IMG/VR virus record: IMGVR_UViG_3300037722_000690
Coordinates: 1-48,089 of that record
Reading direction: 5' to 3' (one strand)
DNA length: 48,089 nt
Source of the DNA: a virus
Lineage: Duplodnaviria; Caudoviricetes
The notes beneath the pieces are model-generated. The model saw only the letters and a list, made by a program, of their open reading frames with translations. It did not search any database and was not told the origin of the DNA. This document shows, piece by piece, positions 2 to 43,026 of the stretch (positions are counted from its first letter, which is position 1; each line of letters opens with the position of its first letter). A program made the position numbers and the translations under genes.

Positions 2-2560
2 CCGGACTTCAAACCTTTCCAGAAAATTATCGACAGCGCGGATAACGTCTACATCACCTGGAAGTTGACGGAGTGGCTGCCGATAAAGTTGCATTGGTAT
101 AAGTGGCAGCCGGGATTTGCCCACGACAGGAACTGTTCCTCCTACGACAGCGAGTTCGACGAGTTTTACCAGAACTGTAGCCTGGTCACGGCGGACAACT
201 TCGACAGCGCGGTCAAAGCCATTAGACGTCTCCTGCCCCAGACTGCCTACGTCCCAATCGATATTGAGACGGACGTCCCTGATGAGTCGAGAGAGTGGTT
301 GAAGATTATTGCGGAAAATCTTGGCGGAAAGAAAGCGCCCATACAGGTGGACGTGCTGGAATCAAAGATAGTGGGTATGTCCATCACTATCGGCAACAAC
401 CTCCAGTACACTTACTACTTCTCAATCAATCACGCGGACACAAACAACATCACAACCGAGCAGGCCCGGGACTTGGTTCTCAGTATCGACAAACCAAAGA
501 TTGCCCATAATGCTTCGGGCTTCGAGATACCGGTCTTTTACCTGAACTGGGGCGTCTGGGTACCAGATGTCTACTGCAGCCAGATCGCTGCCGGCTATGT
601 GGATGAAAACAACCCGAAGGGGCTGAAGATGTTGTCCCAGAGATACTTCAACTACAAACAGACTTCCTATAAAGATGTGGTCGGTATTGAGGAGCCGGTG
701 TTGGACGACGCGGGAGAGCCGAAGCTTGACGCTGAGGGCAACGTCGTTAAGGCTTTCCGGCTGCGCGGTATGTCTGAACTCACGGGTGCCGAGACAACCG
801 CTTACGGTTGTGATGACACCATTATGGGCGGACACCTGTTTAACTTTTTCGAATTGGTGATGGACGTCGAGGAAACTTTCAACGCCTACGCCGCTGTCGA
901 GAGCGACGCCATGTACATGACGGCTTCCGCCTTTGTTAACGGAGCCAACATCGATCTGGAAGAGCTGGAGAAAATTAGACAGGAGGATAAAGCAGTTGCC
1001 GAGCAGTCGCAGGAAATTATCGATGCGTATCTGATCAAGATGGGCTGGGAAGGCTCGGTGTTTGTGCCGCTTGCTGACCTGTCTCCGGCAGAAATAAAGC
1101 GGGGCTTTCTGATGATCACCGGGGATGTGCCGTTGGCTACTCGTTTTAGGAAGTTGGACAAGATTGTCGCTGCCATTCTTATTGAGGCGGATGTGATGGC
1201 GTCCGGTGACACAACGGCATTGCTTGAGCAGTATGCGGCTTTTCTTGAGGCTGAGGACGTCGGTGGCGCGAACCAGTTGCTGGCCGATAACTTTGTCCCT
1301 CGAGTGGACTTTAAAGTCAACTCAGTGGTACAGAAAAGAAAGCTCCTCTATGAGGTAATGAACCTGCCTATTCGGTACTTCAATCAAGTAACGGATGCCA
1401 TGCGGGCAGTCGGCCGGGACAAGGGCGACCCAGCCACGGATGAGGACGTACTCAAATGGGCGAAAAAAGACGCGGAAGAGGACGAAGTCAAGGTCATTGA
1501 CGCCTTGATCCGGGTGTCCAACTACAAGACCAGGGAAGGGCTATTCTACAGCTCATATCCCCTGCTTGTGCATTGGAGAACAGGCAAGATTCACCCGTCA
1601 CTTAAGCAGTCGTCCACGACGTCGAGAAGGTTCGCCCCTGCAGGTCCCAATGTGAATCAGCAGCCAAAGAGATCTGAAGAGGGTAAGAAAGTCCGCGGTT
1701 GTATTAAGCCGCACCATGAGGATGCTGTCATCGTCGCTCCGGACTTTTCCGGGCAGGAGCTGCGAGTTGGTGCAGAAGAGACGCAGGATGCGGCGTCGCT
1801 TGCCTGTTTCGTCGGGGACAACCTGAAGGACCAGCACACCATTACCGCCTTTGCTATCTGCCAGAAACAGGATAGGGAATTTGCTACTTACGAGGAACTC
1901 GCTGCCGCTATCGACGACAAAGGCAACGAGCTGTATGCTGTCGCTAAGGAGTACCGCGGGGTCAAGGCCAAGCCCACCAACTTCCTGTCGCAGTACGTAT
2001 CGATAGGGGGCGGGGCGTGGATGTTGGGTAAGAAGTTGCAGATCTCGGAAGAGTTGGCGCAGGAGTTCCTTGATGCCAAGTCTGAGGCGTTCCCCGGTAT
2101 TGACAAGTGGAAGGAAGAGTACGGTGCTCAGATCCAGAGCCAAGGCTATTCAGAGACTTTTCTTGGGGCAAAGAAACACATTATCCCATTGCTAAAGTTC
2201 TCCGACTTCAACCACGTAATCAGATCCGCCTTGAACTTCCGTATCCAAAGCTCGTCGGCAGAGATGACCAAGCTGGTTATGGGCGCTGTATGGCGGGCTG
2301 GGTTGCTGCAGAAGTATGATGTCCGGTTTCACTACCCAGTCCACGATGAGTTGGTTTTCAGCGTTGCAAAGAAAGATCTGCAGGCTTTTGCCCTAGCATT
2401 GAAACCGATCATGCAGCAGCAGTATGCACACATGACTGTCCCTATTGTTTCCGCTTTCAGCGTCGGCCACAACTTCGCCGACCTCGATGAGATTCCATGG
2501 GAAGGCTGTGAAGAATGGTTGGCGAAGCAGGAAGAGCTGGAATTGGCTGATGCGGCTTAA
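2..2560 (+). CDS. polA: Family A DNA polymerase with 3'-5' exonuclease domain; 5' end lies outside the window
   Basis: Exo motifs DIETD, HNASGFE and YGCDD; motif A PDFSGQELR; motif B KPTNFLSQY; motif C VHDEL. The frame is open from base 2 (PDFKPFQKIIDSADNVYITWKL), upstream of the TTG at 65. Confidence 0.93.
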   Translation, partial: PDFKPFQKIIDSADNVYITWKLTEWLPIKLHWYKWQPGFAHDRNCSSYDSEFDEFYQNCSLVTADNFDSAVKAIRRLLPQTAYVPIDIETDVPDESREWLKIIAENLGGKKAPIQVDVLESKIVGMSITIGNNLQYTYYFSINHADTNNITTEQARDLVLSIDKPKIAHNASGFEIPVFYLNWGVWVPDVYCSQIAAGYVDENNPKGLKMLSQRYFNYKQTSYKDVVGIEEPVLDDAGEPKLDAEGNVVKAFRLRGMSELTGAETTAYGCDDTIMGGHLFNFFELVMDVEETFNAYAAVESDAMYMTASAFVNGANIDLEELEKIRQEDKAVAEQSQEIIDAYLIKMGWEGSVFVPLADLSPAEIKRGFLMITGDVPLATRFRKLDKIVAAILIEADVMASGDTTALLEQYAAFLEAEDVGGANQLLADNFVPRVDFKVNSVVQKRKLLYEVMNLPIRYFNQVTDAMRAVGRDKGDPATDEDVLKWAKKDAEEDEVKVIDALIRVSNYKTREGLFYSSYPLLVHWRTGKIHPSLKQSSTTSRRFAPAGPNVNQQPKRSEEGKKVRGCIKPHHEDAVIVAPDFSGQELRVGAEETQDAASLACFVGDNLKDQHTITAFAICQKQDREFATYEELAAAIDDKGNELYAVAKEYRGVKAKPTNFLSQYVSIGGGAWMLGKKLQISEELAQEFLDAKSEAFPGIDKWKEEYGAQIQSQGYSETFLGAKKHIIPLLKFSDFNHVIRSALNFRIQSSSAEMTKLVMGAVWRAGLLQKYDVRFHYPVHDELVFSVAKKDLQAFALALKPIMQQQYAHMTVPIVSAFSVGHNFADLDEIPWEGCEEWLAKQEELELADAA

Positions 2561-2570
2561 AGGGTTTGTT

Positions 2571-2663
2571 GCAGCAGTGGCTAAACTGGTAGCCGTTTTG
2601 GAGTTAGGCGCAAGTATGTTCAACAGATCTCCAAGACTGTAGGTTCGAACCCTGCCTGCTGCA
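2571..2663 (+). ncRNA. tRNA-like RNA with an enlarged anticodon arm and no encoded CCA
   Basis: Acceptor stem GCAGCAG (2571-2577)/CTGCTGC (2656-2662) plus A; D arm GCTA-AACTGG-TAGC; T arm GTAGG-TTCGAAC-CCTGC; central stem GTTTTGGAG/CTCCAAGAC closing a 25-nt loop. Confidence 0.65.
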
Positions 2664-2716
2664 AGAGAAGAAAGTAGTATCGAACCCTGCCTGCTGCAAG
2701 AGAAGAAAGTAGTATC
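2645..2716 (+). repeat. Perfect 35-bp tandem duplication
   Basis: TCGAACCCTGCCTGCTGCAAGAGAAGAAAGTAGTA at 2645-2679 and again at 2680-2714, followed by TC. Confidence 0.97.
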
Positions 2717-3055
2717 AACCAAAGGATGCGCGTATGAAAAGATTCAATAAACTAACTCCTGCTCAAGATGAAAGGCTTGCATTATTGTTGGAAGAGATGG
2801 GAGAGGCCATCCAAGTTATTGGGAAAACCAAGAGACATGGATTTGACAGCGCACACCCCGACAAGCCTGAAATAACCAATAGAATGCTGCTTGAAAAAGA
2901 ATTAGGTCACGTAAGGCACTCGATGATCAGGCTGTGTGAGAGTGGGGATCTATCTGAGACAGAAATACACAAAGCTGCAGGTATGAAGAGAATAAACGTA
3001 TGGCGATATCTGCACCACCAAGACGACTGATACCAACTGATTATATGTCAGAAAG
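2705..3055 (+). mobile_element. Putative gene cassette 1 (left motif, MazG-like gene, right motif)
   Basis: Left GAAAGTAGTATCAACCA at 2705-2721; right GATACCAACTGATTATATGTCAGAAAG at 3029-3055; GAAAG at both ends. The same pair brackets 5298-5559. Confidence 0.55.
2734..3030 (+). CDS. MazG-like all-alpha nucleoside triphosphate pyrophosphohydrolase
   Basis: EEMGE...EKELGH pattern matches the MazG EExxE...ExxD signature, with the final Asp replaced by His; AAGGA RBS. Confidence 0.7.
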   Translation: MKRFNKLTPAQDERLALLLEEMGEAIQVIGKTKRHGFDSAHPDKPEITNRMLLEKELGHVRHSMIRLCESGDLSETEIHKAAGMKRINVWRYLHHQDD

Positions 3056-3074
3056 CTAAATAAGGAGGGAAACA

Positions 3075-3209
3075 ATGGAAACAATGAAATATTTGGGTGG
3101 GGTTATTCAGATTGGATGTGCTATAGCGGTTGGCTACGACTCCTCATGGGTAGCCGGTGTTGTGTTGATTCTGTTCGTTATAGGGCACAACATGGAAAAG
3201 CACACGTAA
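3075..3209 (+). CDS. Small membrane protein (44 aa), not in the ORF track
   Basis: AAGGAGG RBS, then METMKYLGGVIQIGCAIAVGYDSSWVAGVVLILFVIGHNMEKHT and stop; two hydrophobic segments. Confidence 0.65.
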   Translation: METMKYLGGVIQIGCAIAVGYDSSWVAGVVLILFVIGHNMEKHT

Positions 3210-3237
3210 CGGATACTTAATAAGAAGGAGGTCCAAA

Positions 3238-3438
3238 GTGGCCAGTGAAGAACACACGTCCTTTCTACTCCGGAAGATCCCACGGGATCTTTGGGGGCGG
3301 GTAAAGACAAAAGCGTACCAGGAGGGCCTGACGGTCCGGGATTACATTCTCAATGTGTTAACAAAGGAGACAGCAACGTGGCGGGAAAAAAAGACGGCGA
3401 CGGGAAAATCGCCGAAGGAAAATTCACAGAACACTTGA
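3238..3438 (+). CDS. Ribbon-helix-helix (Arc/CopG-like) DNA-binding protein
   Basis: AAGGAGG RBS and GTG start; SFLLRKIPRDLWGRVKTKAYQEGLTVRDYILNVL fits the RHH strand-helix-G-helix pattern. Confidence 0.7.
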   Translation: MASEEHTSFLLRKIPRDLWGRVKTKAYQEGLTVRDYILNVLTKETATWREKKTATGKSPKENSQNT

Positions 3439-3827
3439 AAGAGTTGATGAAAGATAAACTCTGGTGGGGGCATAAACTCCCTGATGCTTCGGTATGCCTC
3501 GGCCGAGTGCCCGCCCAACCAGCGGATTACATGGTTACATACAACGGCTCTCCTATGATGTTGCTCGAATGCAAGGAGAGTAAGAGTGAGACGTCCGTAC
3601 CGGCGTCGCGCTTCACGCAAGTACCTAAAATGACTAGGTTTGTAATGGCAGGGGGCAAAGCCGGGTTTTGTGTCTACTTCCGGTATGCAGTAAAAACTTA
3701 CTGGATCTTTGTCCCTTTAGAAGATGCCAAGGCTATTGATAAGAGCTTGAAAGTCACACCCGACTACAAGCGGTACACGGATATTCAATCATTAATGCAA
3801 GACGTTAAGGAGGAGTTATCTAAATGA
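3378..3827 (+). CDS. RecU/Hjc-like PD-(D/E)XK Holliday junction resolvase
   Basis: GKIAE...PADY...LLECKES motifs. Likely start is the GTG at 3378 after AAGGAG (ORF track starts at 3291). Confidence 0.75.
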   Translation: MAGKKDGDGKIAEGKFTEHLKELMKDKLWWGHKLPDASVCLGRVPAQPADYMVTYNGSPMMLLECKESKSETSVPASRFTQVPKMTRFVMAGGKAGFCVYFRYAVKTYWIFVPLEDAKAIDKSLKVTPDYKRYTDIQSLMQDVKEELSK

Positions 3828-4189
3828 ATAAACAGTCTGTTGAGGAAAAAGACCCCAACGGCATTGATGCTCATTTGCCTGGGGCTAAACTTGACGCCGG
3901 AAAAGTAATGGCTGGAGTACTTAGTGATTTTTCTCTGGCTTTAATCGCGGTGGCTGAGGTTGGGACTTTTGGTGCTAATAAGTACAGTCGTGGGGGCTGG
4001 CAATCAGTCCCGGATGGGGAAGTAAGGTACTTCGACGCGGGGTGGCGACACTTGTTAAAGCGTCGCCATGAGGACTATGACGTGGACTCAGGACTGCTGC
4101 ATGACGCACACCGAGCGTGGAATGTACTGGCTGAATTAGAGTTGAAACTGCGGCGAGAGCAGGAGTCGGCATTAAAGCTGGGGGCATAA
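3824..4189 (+). CDS. dATP/dGTP diphosphohydrolase-domain protein (DUF5664-like)
   Basis: Characteristic GAKLDAGK...VAEVGTFGANKY...W...RYFDAGWRHL...DSGLLHDAHRAWN sequence. Confidence 0.85.
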   Translation: MNKQSVEEKDPNGIDAHLPGAKLDAGKVMAGVLSDFSLALIAVAEVGTFGANKYSRGGWQSVPDGEVRYFDAGWRHLLKRRHEDYDVDSGLLHDAHRAWNVLAELELKLRREQESALKLGA

Positions 4190-4223
4190 GCCACCAAAAA
4201 CTTAGTTTATAAAGGAGAACACC

Positions 4224-4493
4224 ATGAACTACACAAGGGAAATTATTGAAGCAATGTTCGCTGACCACCGAGTCCTGCAGGTCACCTTCATTAAGGAGAA
4301 GGACGGCTCGGAGCGGAAGATGATCTGCACCAAGGACCTCGGCTTGGTGCCTACAGAGAAATGGCCTAAGAGCCCGCCAAAGACTCCGTCCGAAGAGTCC
4401 TGCAACGTCTGGGAGCTTGAGGTGGGCTGGCGCTCCTTCAAGTACAAGAACATTATCGACGTGGTCCCGGGAGAACCCTATGTGGAGGTTTAG
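4224..4493 (+). CDS. WYL_2/DUF2693-like SH3 beta-barrel protein
   Basis: VTFIKEKDGSERKMICT...VWELEVGWRSFK pattern; AAGGAG RBS. Confidence 0.75.
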   Translation: MNYTREIIEAMFADHRVLQVTFIKEKDGSERKMICTKDLGLVPTEKWPKSPPKTPSEESCNVWELEVGWRSFKYKNIIDVVPGEPYVEV

Positions 4494-4827
4494 GCTAAAG
4501 CTGTTGGCGTGGTGGGGCTGGCCTCATGTCATGCTGTGGTTGTGCTGTTTTCTTCTGGCCACGGAAGACTATATGGTTTGGAAGTTGCTGTGGTGCGGTC
4601 TGGTGATAACTCTATTGGCTGCCTTCTGTTGGCCACCTTACCCGAAGAAGCCACTGATCAAGTGGTGGGTAGTGAGCCGAGTTAGGCGAAAAGGCGGGTG
4701 GTCGCCATGGAACGACGAGGCCTGGTCCTTGGACAAGAAAAAGGTATTGAGCTACGTTAAAACTTGTAAGGAAGCGTTCCCTGATGTGGAAATGCGGTTA
4801 GAGGCAAGGGAGGTCATAAATGAGTAA
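4480..4827 (+). CDS. Hypothetical membrane protein
   Basis: ATG at 4480 after GGGAGA, in frame with ORF 4417-4827; two Trp-rich hydrophobic helices; overlaps its neighbours in typical phage fashion. Confidence 0.55.
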   Translation: MWRFRLKLLAWWGWPHVMLWLCCFLLATEDYMVWKLLWCGLVITLLAAFCWPPYPKKPLIKWWVVSRVRRKGGWSPWNDEAWSLDKKKVLSYVKTCKEAFPDVEMRLEAREVINE

Positions 4828-5299
4828 ATGCTCTAATCAGCAATTAACTGTCCTCGCTGCCGTATCCGGGGCTTTGGCCGTGATGTTGGCGCCTGGGAAA
4901 GTATCTCAGGTGGTACGGCGACGGTTCATAGCAGAGACTGAGGACGTGGTCAATGAAACCATATCGATGTGGGAGGCTACGGGTGATGACATCAGGAACT
5001 TCGAGCGCCACATAAAGCCGACGTTTCTCAAGTGGCATTCCTTTATGGAGAGCCAGAAACGGATACGGTTGACAGGTGTCAACCTTGCATGCATGTGTGC
5101 CAGAGTAATCCAAGACCAGCTGGATCGATCTTCTGATCGCCGGAAGAAGTACATGCTGGAAGAGATAGCCAAACGGATCGAGATTATCCATAATTACTTT
5201 GACGCCGAGGGCGACAACTTTGTGGCATATGATGAATCAGCTGTTCTCATGGACTATCTGTATAAGGAAATCGATTGGGAATTCGATTGGCGAAGTTGA
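4820..5299 (+). CDS. Hypothetical protein
   Basis: GGAGG RBS; 159-aa ORF co-directional within the operon. Confidence 0.7.
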   Translation: MSKCSNQQLTVLAAVSGALAVMLAPGKVSQVVRRRFIAETEDVVNETISMWEATGDDIRNFERHIKPTFLKWHSFMESQKRIRLTGVNLACMCARVIQDQLDRSSDRRKKYMLEEIAKRIEIIHNYFDAEGDNFVAYDESAVLMDYLYKEIDWEFDWRS

Positions 5300-5559
5300 A
5301 AGTAGTATCAACCATGGGGGGTGGGAACTAAATGAGCTTAGGTGTACAATTATTTTGGTGCATGTATGTAATTTCTTTTAGCATATTACTTGGCCCGTGT
5401 TTTAGCATTTTTGCTTTTACTTTCCATAGTTTAAGTACCAAAAAGTGTGTATATATGGGAATTGCGTTAGACTTGTTGGCAACAACTATTATAGCTATAA
5501 GCGTAGTAGCATGTAGAGCGTAACAACGCAAGATACTAACTGATAATATGTCAGGAAAG
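5298..5559 (+). mobile_element. Putative gene cassette 2 (left motif, AT-rich membrane-protein gene, right motif)
   Basis: Left GAAAGTAGTATCAACCA at 5298-5314, identical to 2705-2721; right GATACTAACTGATAATATGTCAGGAAAG at 5532-5559; interior visibly AT-richer than the flanks. Confidence 0.55.
5332..5523 (+). CDS. Small two-helix membrane protein (63 aa), cassette cargo
   Basis: G-rich RBS-like stretch; very hydrophobic sequence; fills the space between the two motifs. Confidence 0.5.
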   Translation: MSLGVQLFWCMYVISFSILLGPCFSIFAFTFHSLSTKKCVYMGIALDLLATTIIAISVVACRA

Positions 5560-5570
5560 GAGAAAAATAA

Positions 5571-6602
5571 ATGATAAAAGTAATCAACGATACACACCTT
5601 GATGTGCGCCGTGTCGGCGGCACCACAGAAATCTCTCGGGCGGCCTTGCAGGAGTACACTGTGGAGGAGTTCCGGAAGTTACTGTTTTCTTGTAGCGACG
5701 CGGACCACGTCGTAATCCTTGGCGACCTCTACGACCGCGCCAAAGTCGAGGAGTGGATCTTCTGGCAGGTTTACGAAATGCTGGTTGATTTCTGTGATAC
5801 CAATCCAAGCTGTAAGGTATTGATAGTACGAGGGAATCACGACAGTCGCAGCAAGGACAGGCAGAACATGTGTTCCCTGGAGCTACTCATTAAACTGCTG
5901 GCACACAGAATAACTCCGGTGTTTGAAAAACCCTACACCTTTGAAGACGAGGGCAAAACACACAGGATAATCCCTCATATGTTTAATCAGGAGGAGTTTG
6001 ATCTGGAGTTGTCGAGGTCTAATCACCATGTGGATTTCCTGTACCTGCATGCGAACGTCGACAATCCATGGGCGAACGGAGACCACTCGTTAAATCTCAG
6101 CAGGGAGCAAATCAAGACCCTGCACGACAACGGCGTCACTGTCATTTGTGCTCATGAGCACCAAGCCCGTCGTCCGTTCCAGAATGTTTATGTGATAGGT
6201 AATCAGTTTCCTACATCGATAGCTGACGCCCTCGGGAATAGCCAGAAGAGTTTGCTGGTTATATCCGAAGGTAAAGTCAGTAGAGAAGTTACTTGGTTAG
6301 CCCAGGGCTCGTTCTACGACGTCCCTGTAGAAGCCCTTGACACAGTGCCGACCACAGCGCAGTTTGTCCGGATAAACGGAATTTCCACAAAAGCGGAATT
6401 TTCCAAGACTGTTCAGACCATCGATCAGTTCCGCAAAAAGTCCAATGCCTTTGTTGTCAGCAACGCTGTCGCTGTCATTAACGAGGACCAAAGCATTTCC
6501 GCCGAAGAGGTCACCGGCATTAATGTGATCGAACTGCTTGTCGCTGCTATTCCGGAGAAGTTCCGGGGAAGAGTAGAGATATGCTTAACTGAGGGAGTCT
6601 AA
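5571..6602 (+). CDS. SbcD/Mre11-like metallophosphoesterase nuclease (T5 D12-like)
   Basis: DTH, GDLYD, GNHD, H and AHEH calcineurin-like motifs; lies upstream of an SbcC-like gene. Confidence 0.88.
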   Translation: MIKVINDTHLDVRRVGGTTEISRAALQEYTVEEFRKLLFSCSDADHVVILGDLYDRAKVEEWIFWQVYEMLVDFCDTNPSCKVLIVRGNHDSRSKDRQNMCSLELLIKLLAHRITPVFEKPYTFEDEGKTHRIIPHMFNQEEFDLELSRSNHHVDFLYLHANVDNPWANGDHSLNLSREQIKTLHDNGVTVICAHEHQARRPFQNVYVIGNQFPTSIADALGNSQKSLLVISEGKVSREVTWLAQGSFYDVPVEALDTVPTTAQFVRINGISTKAEFSKTVQTIDQFRKKSNAFVVSNAVAVINEDQSISAEEVTGINVIELLVAAIPEKFRGRVEICLTEGV

Positions 6603-16966: not shown

Positions 16967-16987
16967 AACAAACTAAGGTGTCAATAG

Positions 16988-17068
16988 GACAACGCGGATG
17001 ACAACGCGGATGACAACGCGGATGACAACGCGGATGACAACGCGGATGACAACGCGGATGACAACGCG
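16988..17068 (+). repeat. 12-bp tandem repeat GACAACGCGGAT, six full copies plus a 9-bp partial
   Basis: Units start at 16988, 17000, 17012, 17024, 17036 and 17048; partial at 17060. Confidence 0.97.
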
Positions 17069-17114
17069 AACTCTGACTCCGCTTATCAAGGTTCGAGCCC
17101 TTGTCCCCCAGCCA
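17060..17114 (+). pseudogene. 5'-truncated tRNA-Gln(CTG)
   Basis: Anticodon arm GCGAA-CTCTGAC-TCCGC with CTG at 17073-17075; T arm CAAGG-TTCGAGC-CCTTG; 3' end TCCCCCA-G-CCA typical of tRNA-Gln; no TGGGGGA 5' acceptor strand upstream. Confidence 0.8.
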
Positions 17115-17236: not shown

Positions 17237-17253
17237 TGGTTGATAGTAGTTTC
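17237..17253 (-). repeat. Third, variant copy of the cassette left motif
   Basis: Minus strand reads GAAACTACTATCAACCA, 15/17 identical to GAAAGTAGTATCAACCA; 3 bp after the stop of 17257-19716. Confidence 0.6.
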
Positions 17254-42651: not shown

Positions 42652-43026
42652 TTATTTCTTCCCGCTAACCGGTCTCTTCACTACGACGTCTGCAGGCTTT
42701 TTCTCCGCTACTACTTCAGCAGGCTTTTCCTCAGCTACTACTTCCTTAGGCTTTTCCTCAGCTACTACTTCCTTAGGCTTTTCCTCAGCTACTACTTCCT
42801 TAGGCTTTTCCTCAGCTACTACTTCCTTAGGCTTTTCCTCAGCTACTACTTCCTTAGGTCTCGCCGCCCTGACGATTACTTCCTCGATATGCGGTGAGCC
42901 TAACTCAAACTCTTTCTCCAAGTCCTCCGGAATGTTATCACCTTCATAGTCCCCAATCGGGAGAATTAGTTTGGAACCGAAGGCCAATGTTGCTTTCAAA
43001 CGGAGGATTCTTTTATCTTCACTCAT
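42652..43026 (-). CDS. Hypothetical protein with (PKEVVAEEK)n repeats
   Basis: AAGGTG RBS; typical low-complexity gene following a capsid gene. Confidence 0.7.
   Translation of the reverse strand: MSEDKRILRLKATLAFGSKLILPIGDYEGDNIPEDLEKEFELGSPHIEEVIVRAARPKEVVAEEKPKEVVAEEKPKEVVAEEKPKEVVAEEKPKEVVAEEKPAEVVAEKKPADVVVKRPVSGKK
42694..42858 (-). repeat. 27-bp in-frame tandem repeat, five perfect copies plus one degenerate
   Basis: AGGCTTTTCCTCAGCTACTACTTCCTT at 42721, 42748, 42775, 42802 and 42829; variant at 42694. Confidence 0.95.

What the first reader, a model, noticed from the sequence alone, without database searches (positions are those of the whole stretch)
2705..5559. Candidate gene-cassette system: unrelated genes bracketed by the same split hairpin site
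Seen: two unrelated ORFs (MazG-like 2734-3030; membrane peptide 5332-5523) each follow an identical 17-mer, GAAAGTAGTATCAACCA (2705, 5298). Each is followed by a near-identical 27/28-mer, GATACYAACTGATWATATGTCAG(G)AAAG (3029, 5532; two mismatches and one gap). Both units begin and end in GAAAG. Joining right end to left end through GAAAG gives GATACYA-A-CTGAT..ATATGTCAG-(G)AAAG-TAGTATC, a hairpin with an outer GATACYA/TAGTATC stem, an inner CTGA/TCAG stem and an asymmetric bulge. Known: integron cassettes are single promoterless ORFs whose foldable attC site is split this way on integration. Inference: these are excisable cassettes moved by a folded-ssDNA recombinase. The ends do not match the canonical RYYYAAC/GTTRRRY cores, and the units are dispersed rather than arrayed. 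No recombinase is encoded in the window.
Basis: partly seen in the sequence, partly recalled or inferred. Interest (0 to 1): 0.88.

Follow-up and report, generated by a model that had tools for sequence, protein, structure and literature searches.

The report
GA-core gene cassettes shared across phages
Small genes in this phage and in five other phages sit between the same two short end sequences, and one such unit turns up again between different neighbours, so they are likely plug-in gene cassettes, predicted to be inserted by a still unidentified host recombinase, which would give phages a defined route for swapping accessory genes.

Summary
Twelve left–right pairs in six phages define the ends: GA|AAGTAGWATCnnnCA … cargo … TGnnnGATWCTAACT|GA. 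The shared core is GA, not GAAAG. The TWATATGTCAG(G)AAAG tail occurs in only 2 of 12 right flanks. Both flanks carry a degenerate copy of the arm motif, shifted 5 bp toward GA (42/60 and 41/60 matches; random about 15; held-out sites 21/40 vs 9.6). An 89%-identical copy of the MazG-like cassette lies between other neighbours, its match starting exactly at GA 2705. The predicted joint folds weakly and lacks attC cores. Best reading: promoterless cassettes inserted as dsDNA circles at loose palindromic targets by a recombinase acting in trans, most likely serine-type (inferred). No circle joint, clean empty site or enzyme was found, and Desulfobacterota chromosomes could not be searched. It works like mobile insertion cassettes and TndX-type elements, and fails the integron and IS1111 tests.

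The parts
2571..2663 (+). tRNA-like gene with an enlarged anticodon arm; its 3' end supplies the left target arm of cassette 1 (context, not part of the cassette)
   Evidence: Rfam RF00005 33.9 bits, E 1.5e-4; not called by default ARAGORN; relaxed ARAGORN calls a tRNA-Leu with an 18-nt insert
2633..2702 (+). 35-bp tandem duplication of the tRNA 3' end plus a truncated left end (12-mer at 2670-2681)
   Evidence: (family D14); junction covered by a contig of the possible source run (record 2), so not independent
2695..2704 (+). cassette 1, left target arm (phage DNA matching TGnnnGATnn)
   Evidence: (4 of 5 motif positions)
2705..2721 (+). cassette 1 left end: GA core (2705-2706) and 15-bp arm AAGTAGTATCAACCA
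   Evidence: second-context copy begins exactly at 2705
2734..3030 (+). cargo 1: MazG-like NTP pyrophosphohydrolase, 98 aa; stop codon lies inside the right arm
   Evidence: phrog_4856 E 2e-13; 92 homologs, some named MazG or NTP pyrophosphatase; no Pfam hit
3024..3040 (+). cassette 1 right end: 15-bp arm (3024-3038) and GA core (3039-3040)
   Evidence: second-context copy matches to 3044 and then differs
   Evidence: (4 of 5)
5288..5297 (+). cassette 2 left target arm, which is the last codons of ORF 4820-5299; that ORF's TGA stop uses the GA core
5298..5314 (+). cassette 2 left end: GA core and 15-bp arm
5332..5523 (+). cargo 2: 63-aa peptide with two hydrophobic stretches, an orphan; the unit is 36% GC against 49% for the window
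5527..5543 (+). cassette 2 right end: 15-bp arm (5527-5541) and GA core (5542-5543)
5544..5553 (+). cassette 2 right target arm, followed by the ribosome-binding site of the SbcD-like gene at 5571
17237..17253 (-). third left end (GAAAC variant) with a good left target arm; no convincing right end found
   Evidence: 4 of 5 flank positions

Best explanation
The two units are non-autonomous gene cassettes bounded by two 15-bp inverted arms and a GA core at each end, and they are likely excised and inserted as double-stranded circles by a recombinase supplied in trans, most likely a serine-type enzyme of a Desulfobacterota host. Shown: constant ends round unrelated cargo in six phages; one cassette in two contexts with a break at GA; flanks that form a loose palindrome TGnnnGATnn-GA-nnATCnnnCA about the core; no enzyme in the cassettes. 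Inferred: excision joins the ends into a 32-bp site symmetric about GA with the arm motif 5 bp further out than in the target; a 2-bp central crossover inserts it at a matching target, often at the end of a resident gene; the cargo, which has its own ribosome-binding site and no promoter of its own, is read from the phage's operon. The enzyme class rests on site geometry alone.
For: (12 pairs, 6 phages): motif GWATCnnnCA at offset 5 in the inner arms (77/84 left, 68/84 right) and at offset 0 in the flanks (55/84 each); flank symmetry 61/132 at offset 0 against 27-44 at 13 other offsets; five-position flank motif 42/60 and 41/60, random GA sites mean 14-15, maximum 29 in 20,000 draws; when GA was not asked for, 17 of 18 left-arm matches adjoin GA and none TC; 8 held-out sites 21/40 vs 9.6 (p=1e-4); copy with 37 differences in 340 nt aligns 2705-3044 with foreign flanks in runs X1 and X2; its left flank has 4 of 5 motif positions (read by eye). 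Call 71A: the left arm in G004 is coding sequence of a gene shared with G005, where the insertion lies 15 nt further on, so flanks are chosen, not carried; with cassette 2 removed and one GA left, the upstream ORF still ends in its own stop. All 12 paired left ends face cargo in the sense direction; one search lists 11 of them with an RBS and ATG 12-30 nt downstream. No sigma-70 promoter at either left end. Precedent: ZD motif shifted 5 bp toward the centre in attB (PMC3783163, passages); TndX targets always hold a central GA (PMC4430133, passage).
Against: No circle joint found: 0 in viral contigs, 0 of 80 17-mer hits preceded by AACT, no joints in 8 runs of contigs. No clean empty site among relatives held. 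No enzyme identified. The motif lies at positions 6-15 and 1-10 from the core, about 10 bp closer than the 16-24 and 11-19 reported for LI integrase, so this is not standard large-serine-integrase geometry. The right end of the second copy is fixed only to 3040-3044, and the letters after it could be a gapped match to the window's tail. The window's two right flanks agree at 9 of 10 positions (one between-genome pair of left flanks also reaches 9). Right partners were picked by pattern and by eye; 6 of 21 loose right-arm matches lack GA, one has TC; 2 of 8 held-out sites score 0 of 5. Several left or right ends have no partner.
Confidence: 0.6

Rival explanations
1. Same cassettes and ends, but moved by a non-serine enzyme: an IS110/IS1111-type DEDD recombinase acting on miniature derivatives with subterminal repeats, or a DDE transposase leaving a 2-bp duplication.
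For: 12-bp subterminal inverted repeats are in the 11-13 bp range of IS1111, which also makes circles (PMC11187229, passages). Shared leaders after the left end suggest derivation from parent elements.
Against: Extensions beyond the repeats are 3+GA on each side, not 7 and 3. Targets are a degenerate palindrome that resembles the element's own arm, not one fixed RNA-specified sequence. No room for a non-coding RNA in 246-311 bp units. The core is always GA in one orientation (17 of 18), which a DDE target duplication would not predict (established knowledge).
Confidence: 0.18
2. Left and right ends are each full tyrosine-recombinase sites (10-bp arms round 7-bp spacers GAAAGTA and TAACTGA) and cargo is swapped by double crossover, as in dif modules.
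For: Counting from the GATWC and GWATC boxes, both ends have 7-bp spacers; one right end is a perfect palindrome (G001). G004 and G005 both carry a cassette after the same gene.
Against: Outer arms are far more degenerate than inner arms (55/84 vs 68-77/84) and are resident coding or tRNA sequence. Insertion points after the shared gene differ by 15 nt. Only 1 of 5 records has a tyrosine integrase.
Confidence: 0.08
3. The motifs are regulatory sites or short conserved boundary sequences at which homologous or illegitimate recombination shuffles genes; no dedicated enzyme.
For: The left arm holds a -10-like hexamer (TAGTAT, TAGAAT, TATAAT in variants). Solo left and right ends occur. Boundary sequences are a proposed source of phage mosaicism (PMC3029335, passage).
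Against: No -35 or extended -10 at either window site. The flanks on both sides share a motif in register about GA although they lie hundreds of bases apart. The relocated copy breaks exactly at GA. The same 17-mer recurs in a siphophage, a lambdoid phage and a podophage.
Confidence: 0.09
4. One reading: an attC-like hairpin with crossover in GAAAG, recombined as folded ssDNA by an integron or HUH enzyme.
For: The window's two right flanks do share TCAG(G)AAAG; the cassette layout (RBS, ORF, stop codon in the right end) resembles integron cassettes; lone cassettes at attG sites exist (bioRxiv 2022.09.11.507474, passages).
Against: Tail in 2 of 12; hairpin -1.8 to -2.8 kcal/mol; RYYYAAC in 1 of 12, GTTRRRY in 0 of 12; no significant covariation; junction scans gave 2 chance hits and 0.
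Confidence: 0.05

Closest known systems
Mobile insertion cassettes (MICs) (PMC4337579, passages)
   Same: Passenger genes between short inverted ends, no transposase of their own, moved in trans; solo ends occur.
   Different: MIC ends derive from known IS or Tn3 repeats (33-97 bp in that paper) with 5-bp target duplications; here the arms are 15 bp, the core is a fixed GA, the target resembles the arms, and the carriers are phages.
TndX of Tn5397 and multi-targeting large serine recombinases (PMC4430133; PMC10083194; passages)
   Same: Central GA dinucleotide always in the target (TndX); many degenerate targets aligned on a dinucleotide core.
   Different: Those elements encode their recombinase and are kilobases long; these units are 246-1124 bp, carry no enzyme, and have shorter sites.
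Serine integrase attP/attB pair (PMC3783163, passages)
   Same: One motif in all four half-sites, 5 bp nearer the crossover dinucleotide in the target than in the donor.
   Different: Here the motif is about 10 bp nearer the core, sites are about 32 and 22 bp, and the target is loose rather than single.
Integron cassettes and SALINs (bioRxiv 2022.09.11.507474, passages)
   Same: Promoterless ORFs with tight ends, inserted singly in the sense orientation.
   Different: No attC cores, no stable hairpin, no GWT target, no arrays or intI seen; crossover is central.
IS1111 family (PMC11187229, passages)
   Same: Subterminal inverted repeats of about 12 bp; circle intermediate predicted.
   Different: Extensions not 7 and 3 bp; no transposase or non-coding region; palindromic degenerate target.
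MPME elements of mycobacteriophages (PMC3029335, passage)
   Same: Ultra-small mobile units with inverted ends in phage genomes.
   Different: MPME1 is one 439-bp sequence with a 6-bp addition at the left end; here cargo varies freely and a GA is shared by both ends.

Membership tests
Integron cassette (attC) | RYYYAAC and GTTRRRY cores | tested here: not met
   RYYYAAC in 1 of 12 right ends, GTTRRRY in 0 of 12 left ends
Integron cassette (attC) | stable folded bottom strand with covarying stems | tested here: not met
Integron cassette (attC) | score against the attC covariance model (IntegronFinder) | not testable with these tools
   model not available; the Rfam scan of 2400-6000 gave only the tRNA
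Integron cassette (attC) | arrays or an adjacent intI | tested here: inconclusive
   no joined sites; host chromosomes not searched
Serine-recombinase element (TndX-like, multi-target LSR) | fixed central dinucleotide at both ends, one orientation | tested here: met
   GA at both ends of 12 of 12 pairs (partly by search design); 17 of 18 left-arm matches when GA was not required
Serine-recombinase element (TndX-like, multi-target LSR) | donor and target share a motif offset by 5 bp | tested here: met
   offset 5 in arms, 0 in flanks
Serine-recombinase element (TndX-like, multi-target LSR) | motif at 16-24 (attP) and 11-19 (attB) from the core as for LI integrase | tested here: not met
   6-15 and 1-10 here
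Serine-recombinase element (TndX-like, multi-target LSR) | serine recombinase gene in the element | tested here: not met
   PF00239 in 0 of 3, PF07508 in 0 of 5 records; none in cargo scanned
Serine-recombinase element (TndX-like, multi-target LSR) | circular intermediate and restored empty target | tested here: inconclusive
   none seen; only contigs were available, which drop rare forms
IS1111 | 11-13 bp subterminal inverted repeats | tested here: met
   12-bp TAGWATCnnnCA and its inverse
IS1111 | extensions of 7 (or 6) and 3 bp | tested here: not met
   3 bp plus GA on each side
IS1111 | DEDD transposase and non-coding RNA region | tested here: not met
   none in window, cargo or G003 ORFs scanned
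Mobile insertion cassette | passenger gene between inverted ends, no own enzyme | tested here: met
Mobile insertion cassette | ends derived from an identified IS or transposon | tested here: inconclusive
   no parent element found; Desulfobacterota chromosomes were out of reach

The most novel reading that the evidence does not exclude
A new integron-like gene-cassette system for phages: one compact recombinase, recognising 32-bp and 22-bp GA-core sites unlike standard serine-integrase sites, loads a shared pool of promoterless accessory-gene cassettes into unrelated sipho-, podo- and lambdoid phages of sulfate- and metal-reducing bacteria, and so is a dedicated engine of phage mosaicism.
Probability: 0.4. 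Interest if true: 0.9.

Novelty: new variant of a known kind. Interest (0 to 1): 0.76.

Why it matters
Phage genomes are mosaics of small genes, and most junctions show no sequence signal, so illegitimate recombination is the usual explanation (PMC3029335). Here the junctions have a fixed grammar shared by unrelated phages, up to five cassettes in one phage. That makes gene traffic between phages countable with a motif and testable in the laboratory. The short sites and loose target also point to a recombinase that could be found by looking for the same ends round a recombinase gene in host genomes.

Tried and rejected
Strict right-end scan of viral contigs: 0. Palindromic right-end pattern: 37 hits, 2 real, both in known phages. 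Of 14 viral 17-mer hits 7 were intergenic before an RBS (4 phages); of 66 metagenome hits 5 were, two of them repeats of known phages and one (L116) doubtful. Degenerate left-end scan: 23 hits, 9 already known, 1 of the other 14 with pairs. The distant relative L001/G007 shares gene order but has no cassette between polymerase and SbcD. GenBank phages and PLSDB: only chance matches; three Desulfobacterota plasmids: 0. 5 genomes plus 201 and 101 genomes of two unidentified phyla: 0; these are probably not the hosts, so this is uninformative. No RNA holder listed. Runs X3-X8 added no second context. Empty-site hunt among relatives: nothing clean; one G005 site upstream of the RecD-like gene looks like a degenerate right end. 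Earlier scan notes: nothing shown. Literature searches for a comparable phage cassette system listed none; the library lacks most subscription papers, and no supplements were read.
Full report
OBSERVATION. The window is a whole 48,089-bp virus record, 38% complete: a siphophage fragment with polymerase, SbcCD, ligase and tail genes. Its RdgC-like protein is closest to those of three Desulfobacterota plasmids, so that is the likely host group. The 17-mer at 2705 and 5298 and the 23-mer at 3029 and 5532 are as described and beyond chance.

THE SAME ENDS ELSEWHERE. The exact 17-mer gave 14 viral hits; 7 (four phages) lie between genes just before an RBS and a small ORF. Of 66 metagenome hits 5 do. 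A degenerate scan added one phage. Reading the records in full gave more units per phage. I kept 12 left-right pairs from six phages (window 2, G001 2, G003 1, G004 1, G005/L141 5, G006 1), 246-1124 bp long. Unpaired ends were left out and 8 of them were used as a held-out set. Cargo is unrelated: MazG-like, RNA ligase, Vut_1-like with a partner, Lar-like, orphans. Carriers include a lambdoid phage and a complete podophage. G001's integrase is closest to a Nitratidesulfovibrio plasmid protein and a G003 cargo protein has a 92% relative named from a Geobacter MAG.

TRUE ANATOMY. Aligned outward from GA, the left arm reads AAGTAGWATCnnnCA and the inverted right arm AGTTAGWATCnnnCA; conservation drops after 15 bases. 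The flanks carry the arm motif at offset 0 instead of 5 (55/84 on each side against 77/84 and 68/84 inside). They are symmetric about GA at offset 0 only (61/132; other offsets 27-44; permuted pairing 52.5, p=0.03). On five positions the flanks score 42/60 and 41/60 against about 15 for random GA sites, and 21/40 against 9.6 in held-out sites, two of which score 0. Left flanks were never part of a search pattern. They are resident sequence: a tRNA end, the last codons of ORF 4820-5299, and in G004 coding sequence shared with G005, whose insertion lies 15 nt away. When GA was not required, 17 of 18 left-arm matches adjoin GA and none TC; 15 of 21 loose right-arm matches adjoin GA, one TC.

MOBILITY. 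In runs X1 (possibly the source sample) and X2, a contig holds a copy of cassette 1 with 37 differences in 340 nt. It aligns from 2705 to 3044 and continues into foreign sequence on both sides. The left break is at the core to the base. The right break is fixed only to 3040-3044, and a gapped match further right cannot be excluded. No circle joint or empty form was seen in viral contigs, among 80 17-mer hits or in 8 runs of contigs, and relatives gave no clean empty site.

MECHANISM. Shown: ends, core, target motif, a second context, sense orientation behind an RBS, no sigma-70 promoter at the window's left ends. Inferred: excision to a dsDNA circle whose joint is a 32-bp site symmetric about GA; insertion by a 2-bp central crossover into a 22-bp loose palindrome; expression from the phage operon. 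A fixed central dinucleotide with a motif shifted 5 bp between donor and target is how serine integrases tell attP from attB (PMC3783163, passages), and TndX targets always hold a central GA (PMC4430133, passage). Against a standard large serine integrase, the motif here lies about 10 bp nearer the core. No serine recombinase family was found in the records searched, none of 79 ORFs of the complete G003 matched a recombinase or transposase family (its largest ORF and ORFs under 70 aa were not scanned), and only G001 has a tyrosine integrase. The enzyme is therefore likely supplied in trans. I put mobile cassette at about 0.85 and cassette with a serine-type enzyme at about 0.6.

It folds at -1.8 to -2.8 kcal/mol. 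The corrected joints fold at 0 to -6.1 with no strand bias, attC cores are nearly absent, and variable arm positions do not covary significantly. Its junction was not found. The ssDNA model is not supported.

COMPARISON. It works like a mobile insertion cassette (PMC4337579, passages) with TndX-like targeting, and the layout recalls integron cassettes and SALINs (bioRxiv 2022.09.11.507474, passages). It fails tested features of attC and of IS1111 (PMC11187229, passages) and differs from MPME (PMC3029335, passage); multi-targeting enzymes are described in PMC10083194 (passages). Searches listed no paper on a cassette system of this kind in phages; coverage is limited to open-licence papers and no supplements were read. 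This scan's earlier notes held nothing.

VERDICT. A real, mobile cassette family shared by unrelated phages, with a defined site grammar. New variant of a known kind; interest 0.76.

Noticed in passing
window 2571-2663 (+): tRNA-like gene with an anticodon arm enlarged by about 18 nt: Rfam tRNA above the gathering score, missed by default ARAGORN, called tRNA-Leu with an insert under relaxed settings.
   Followed up: partly
window about 17059-17110 (+): Looks by eye like the 3' half of a tRNA-Gln(CTG), a possible attP, directly after a 12-nt tandem repeat at 16976-17070; relaxed ARAGORN found nothing there.
   Followed up: partly
L013 / G004, left end at G004 7585 (-): The left end is followed after 3 nt by an inverted partial arm, like a remnant of an almost empty mini-element of about 30 bp; a possible clue to how cassettes are built.
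   Followed up: no
G001, G005, L141, G006 left ends: Leaders between left end and start codon fall into families shared by unrelated cargo and phages (for example TGGAGCAGAAA-ATG in three units, GACGAGG in two), suggesting cargo replacement behind a common leader.
   Followed up: no
G003 11294-about 11545 (+) and 8987 (-): A GAAAC-type left end with TATAATC before a 74-aa ORF and a degenerate right end; a second left-like site lacking the GA core.
   Followed up: partly
G001 9524-8943 (-): One left end followed by two right ends (two ORFs, each ending in a right arm), a possible nested or tandem cassette.
   Followed up: partly
L141 (G005 phage) and G004: A RecD2-like helicase is encoded as two genes in both phages, with a cassette between them in one and an unrelated ORF in the other; in L141 an HNH-like ORF interrupts the end of the C-terminal gene.
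   Followed up: no
window 42654-42869: 27-nt tandem repeat (about 8 copies) in a minus-strand head-region ORF; also about 400-bp repeats in the tail fibre and tape-measure genes.
   Followed up: no
G003 cargo, L152:15528-15815 (-): 96-aa protein (PF26760) with 4,378 homologs, many at 82-93% identity; one cluster includes a 60,621-bp contig, the length of the L141 contig, so the cargo may be shared between the two phages (context not checked).
   Followed up: no
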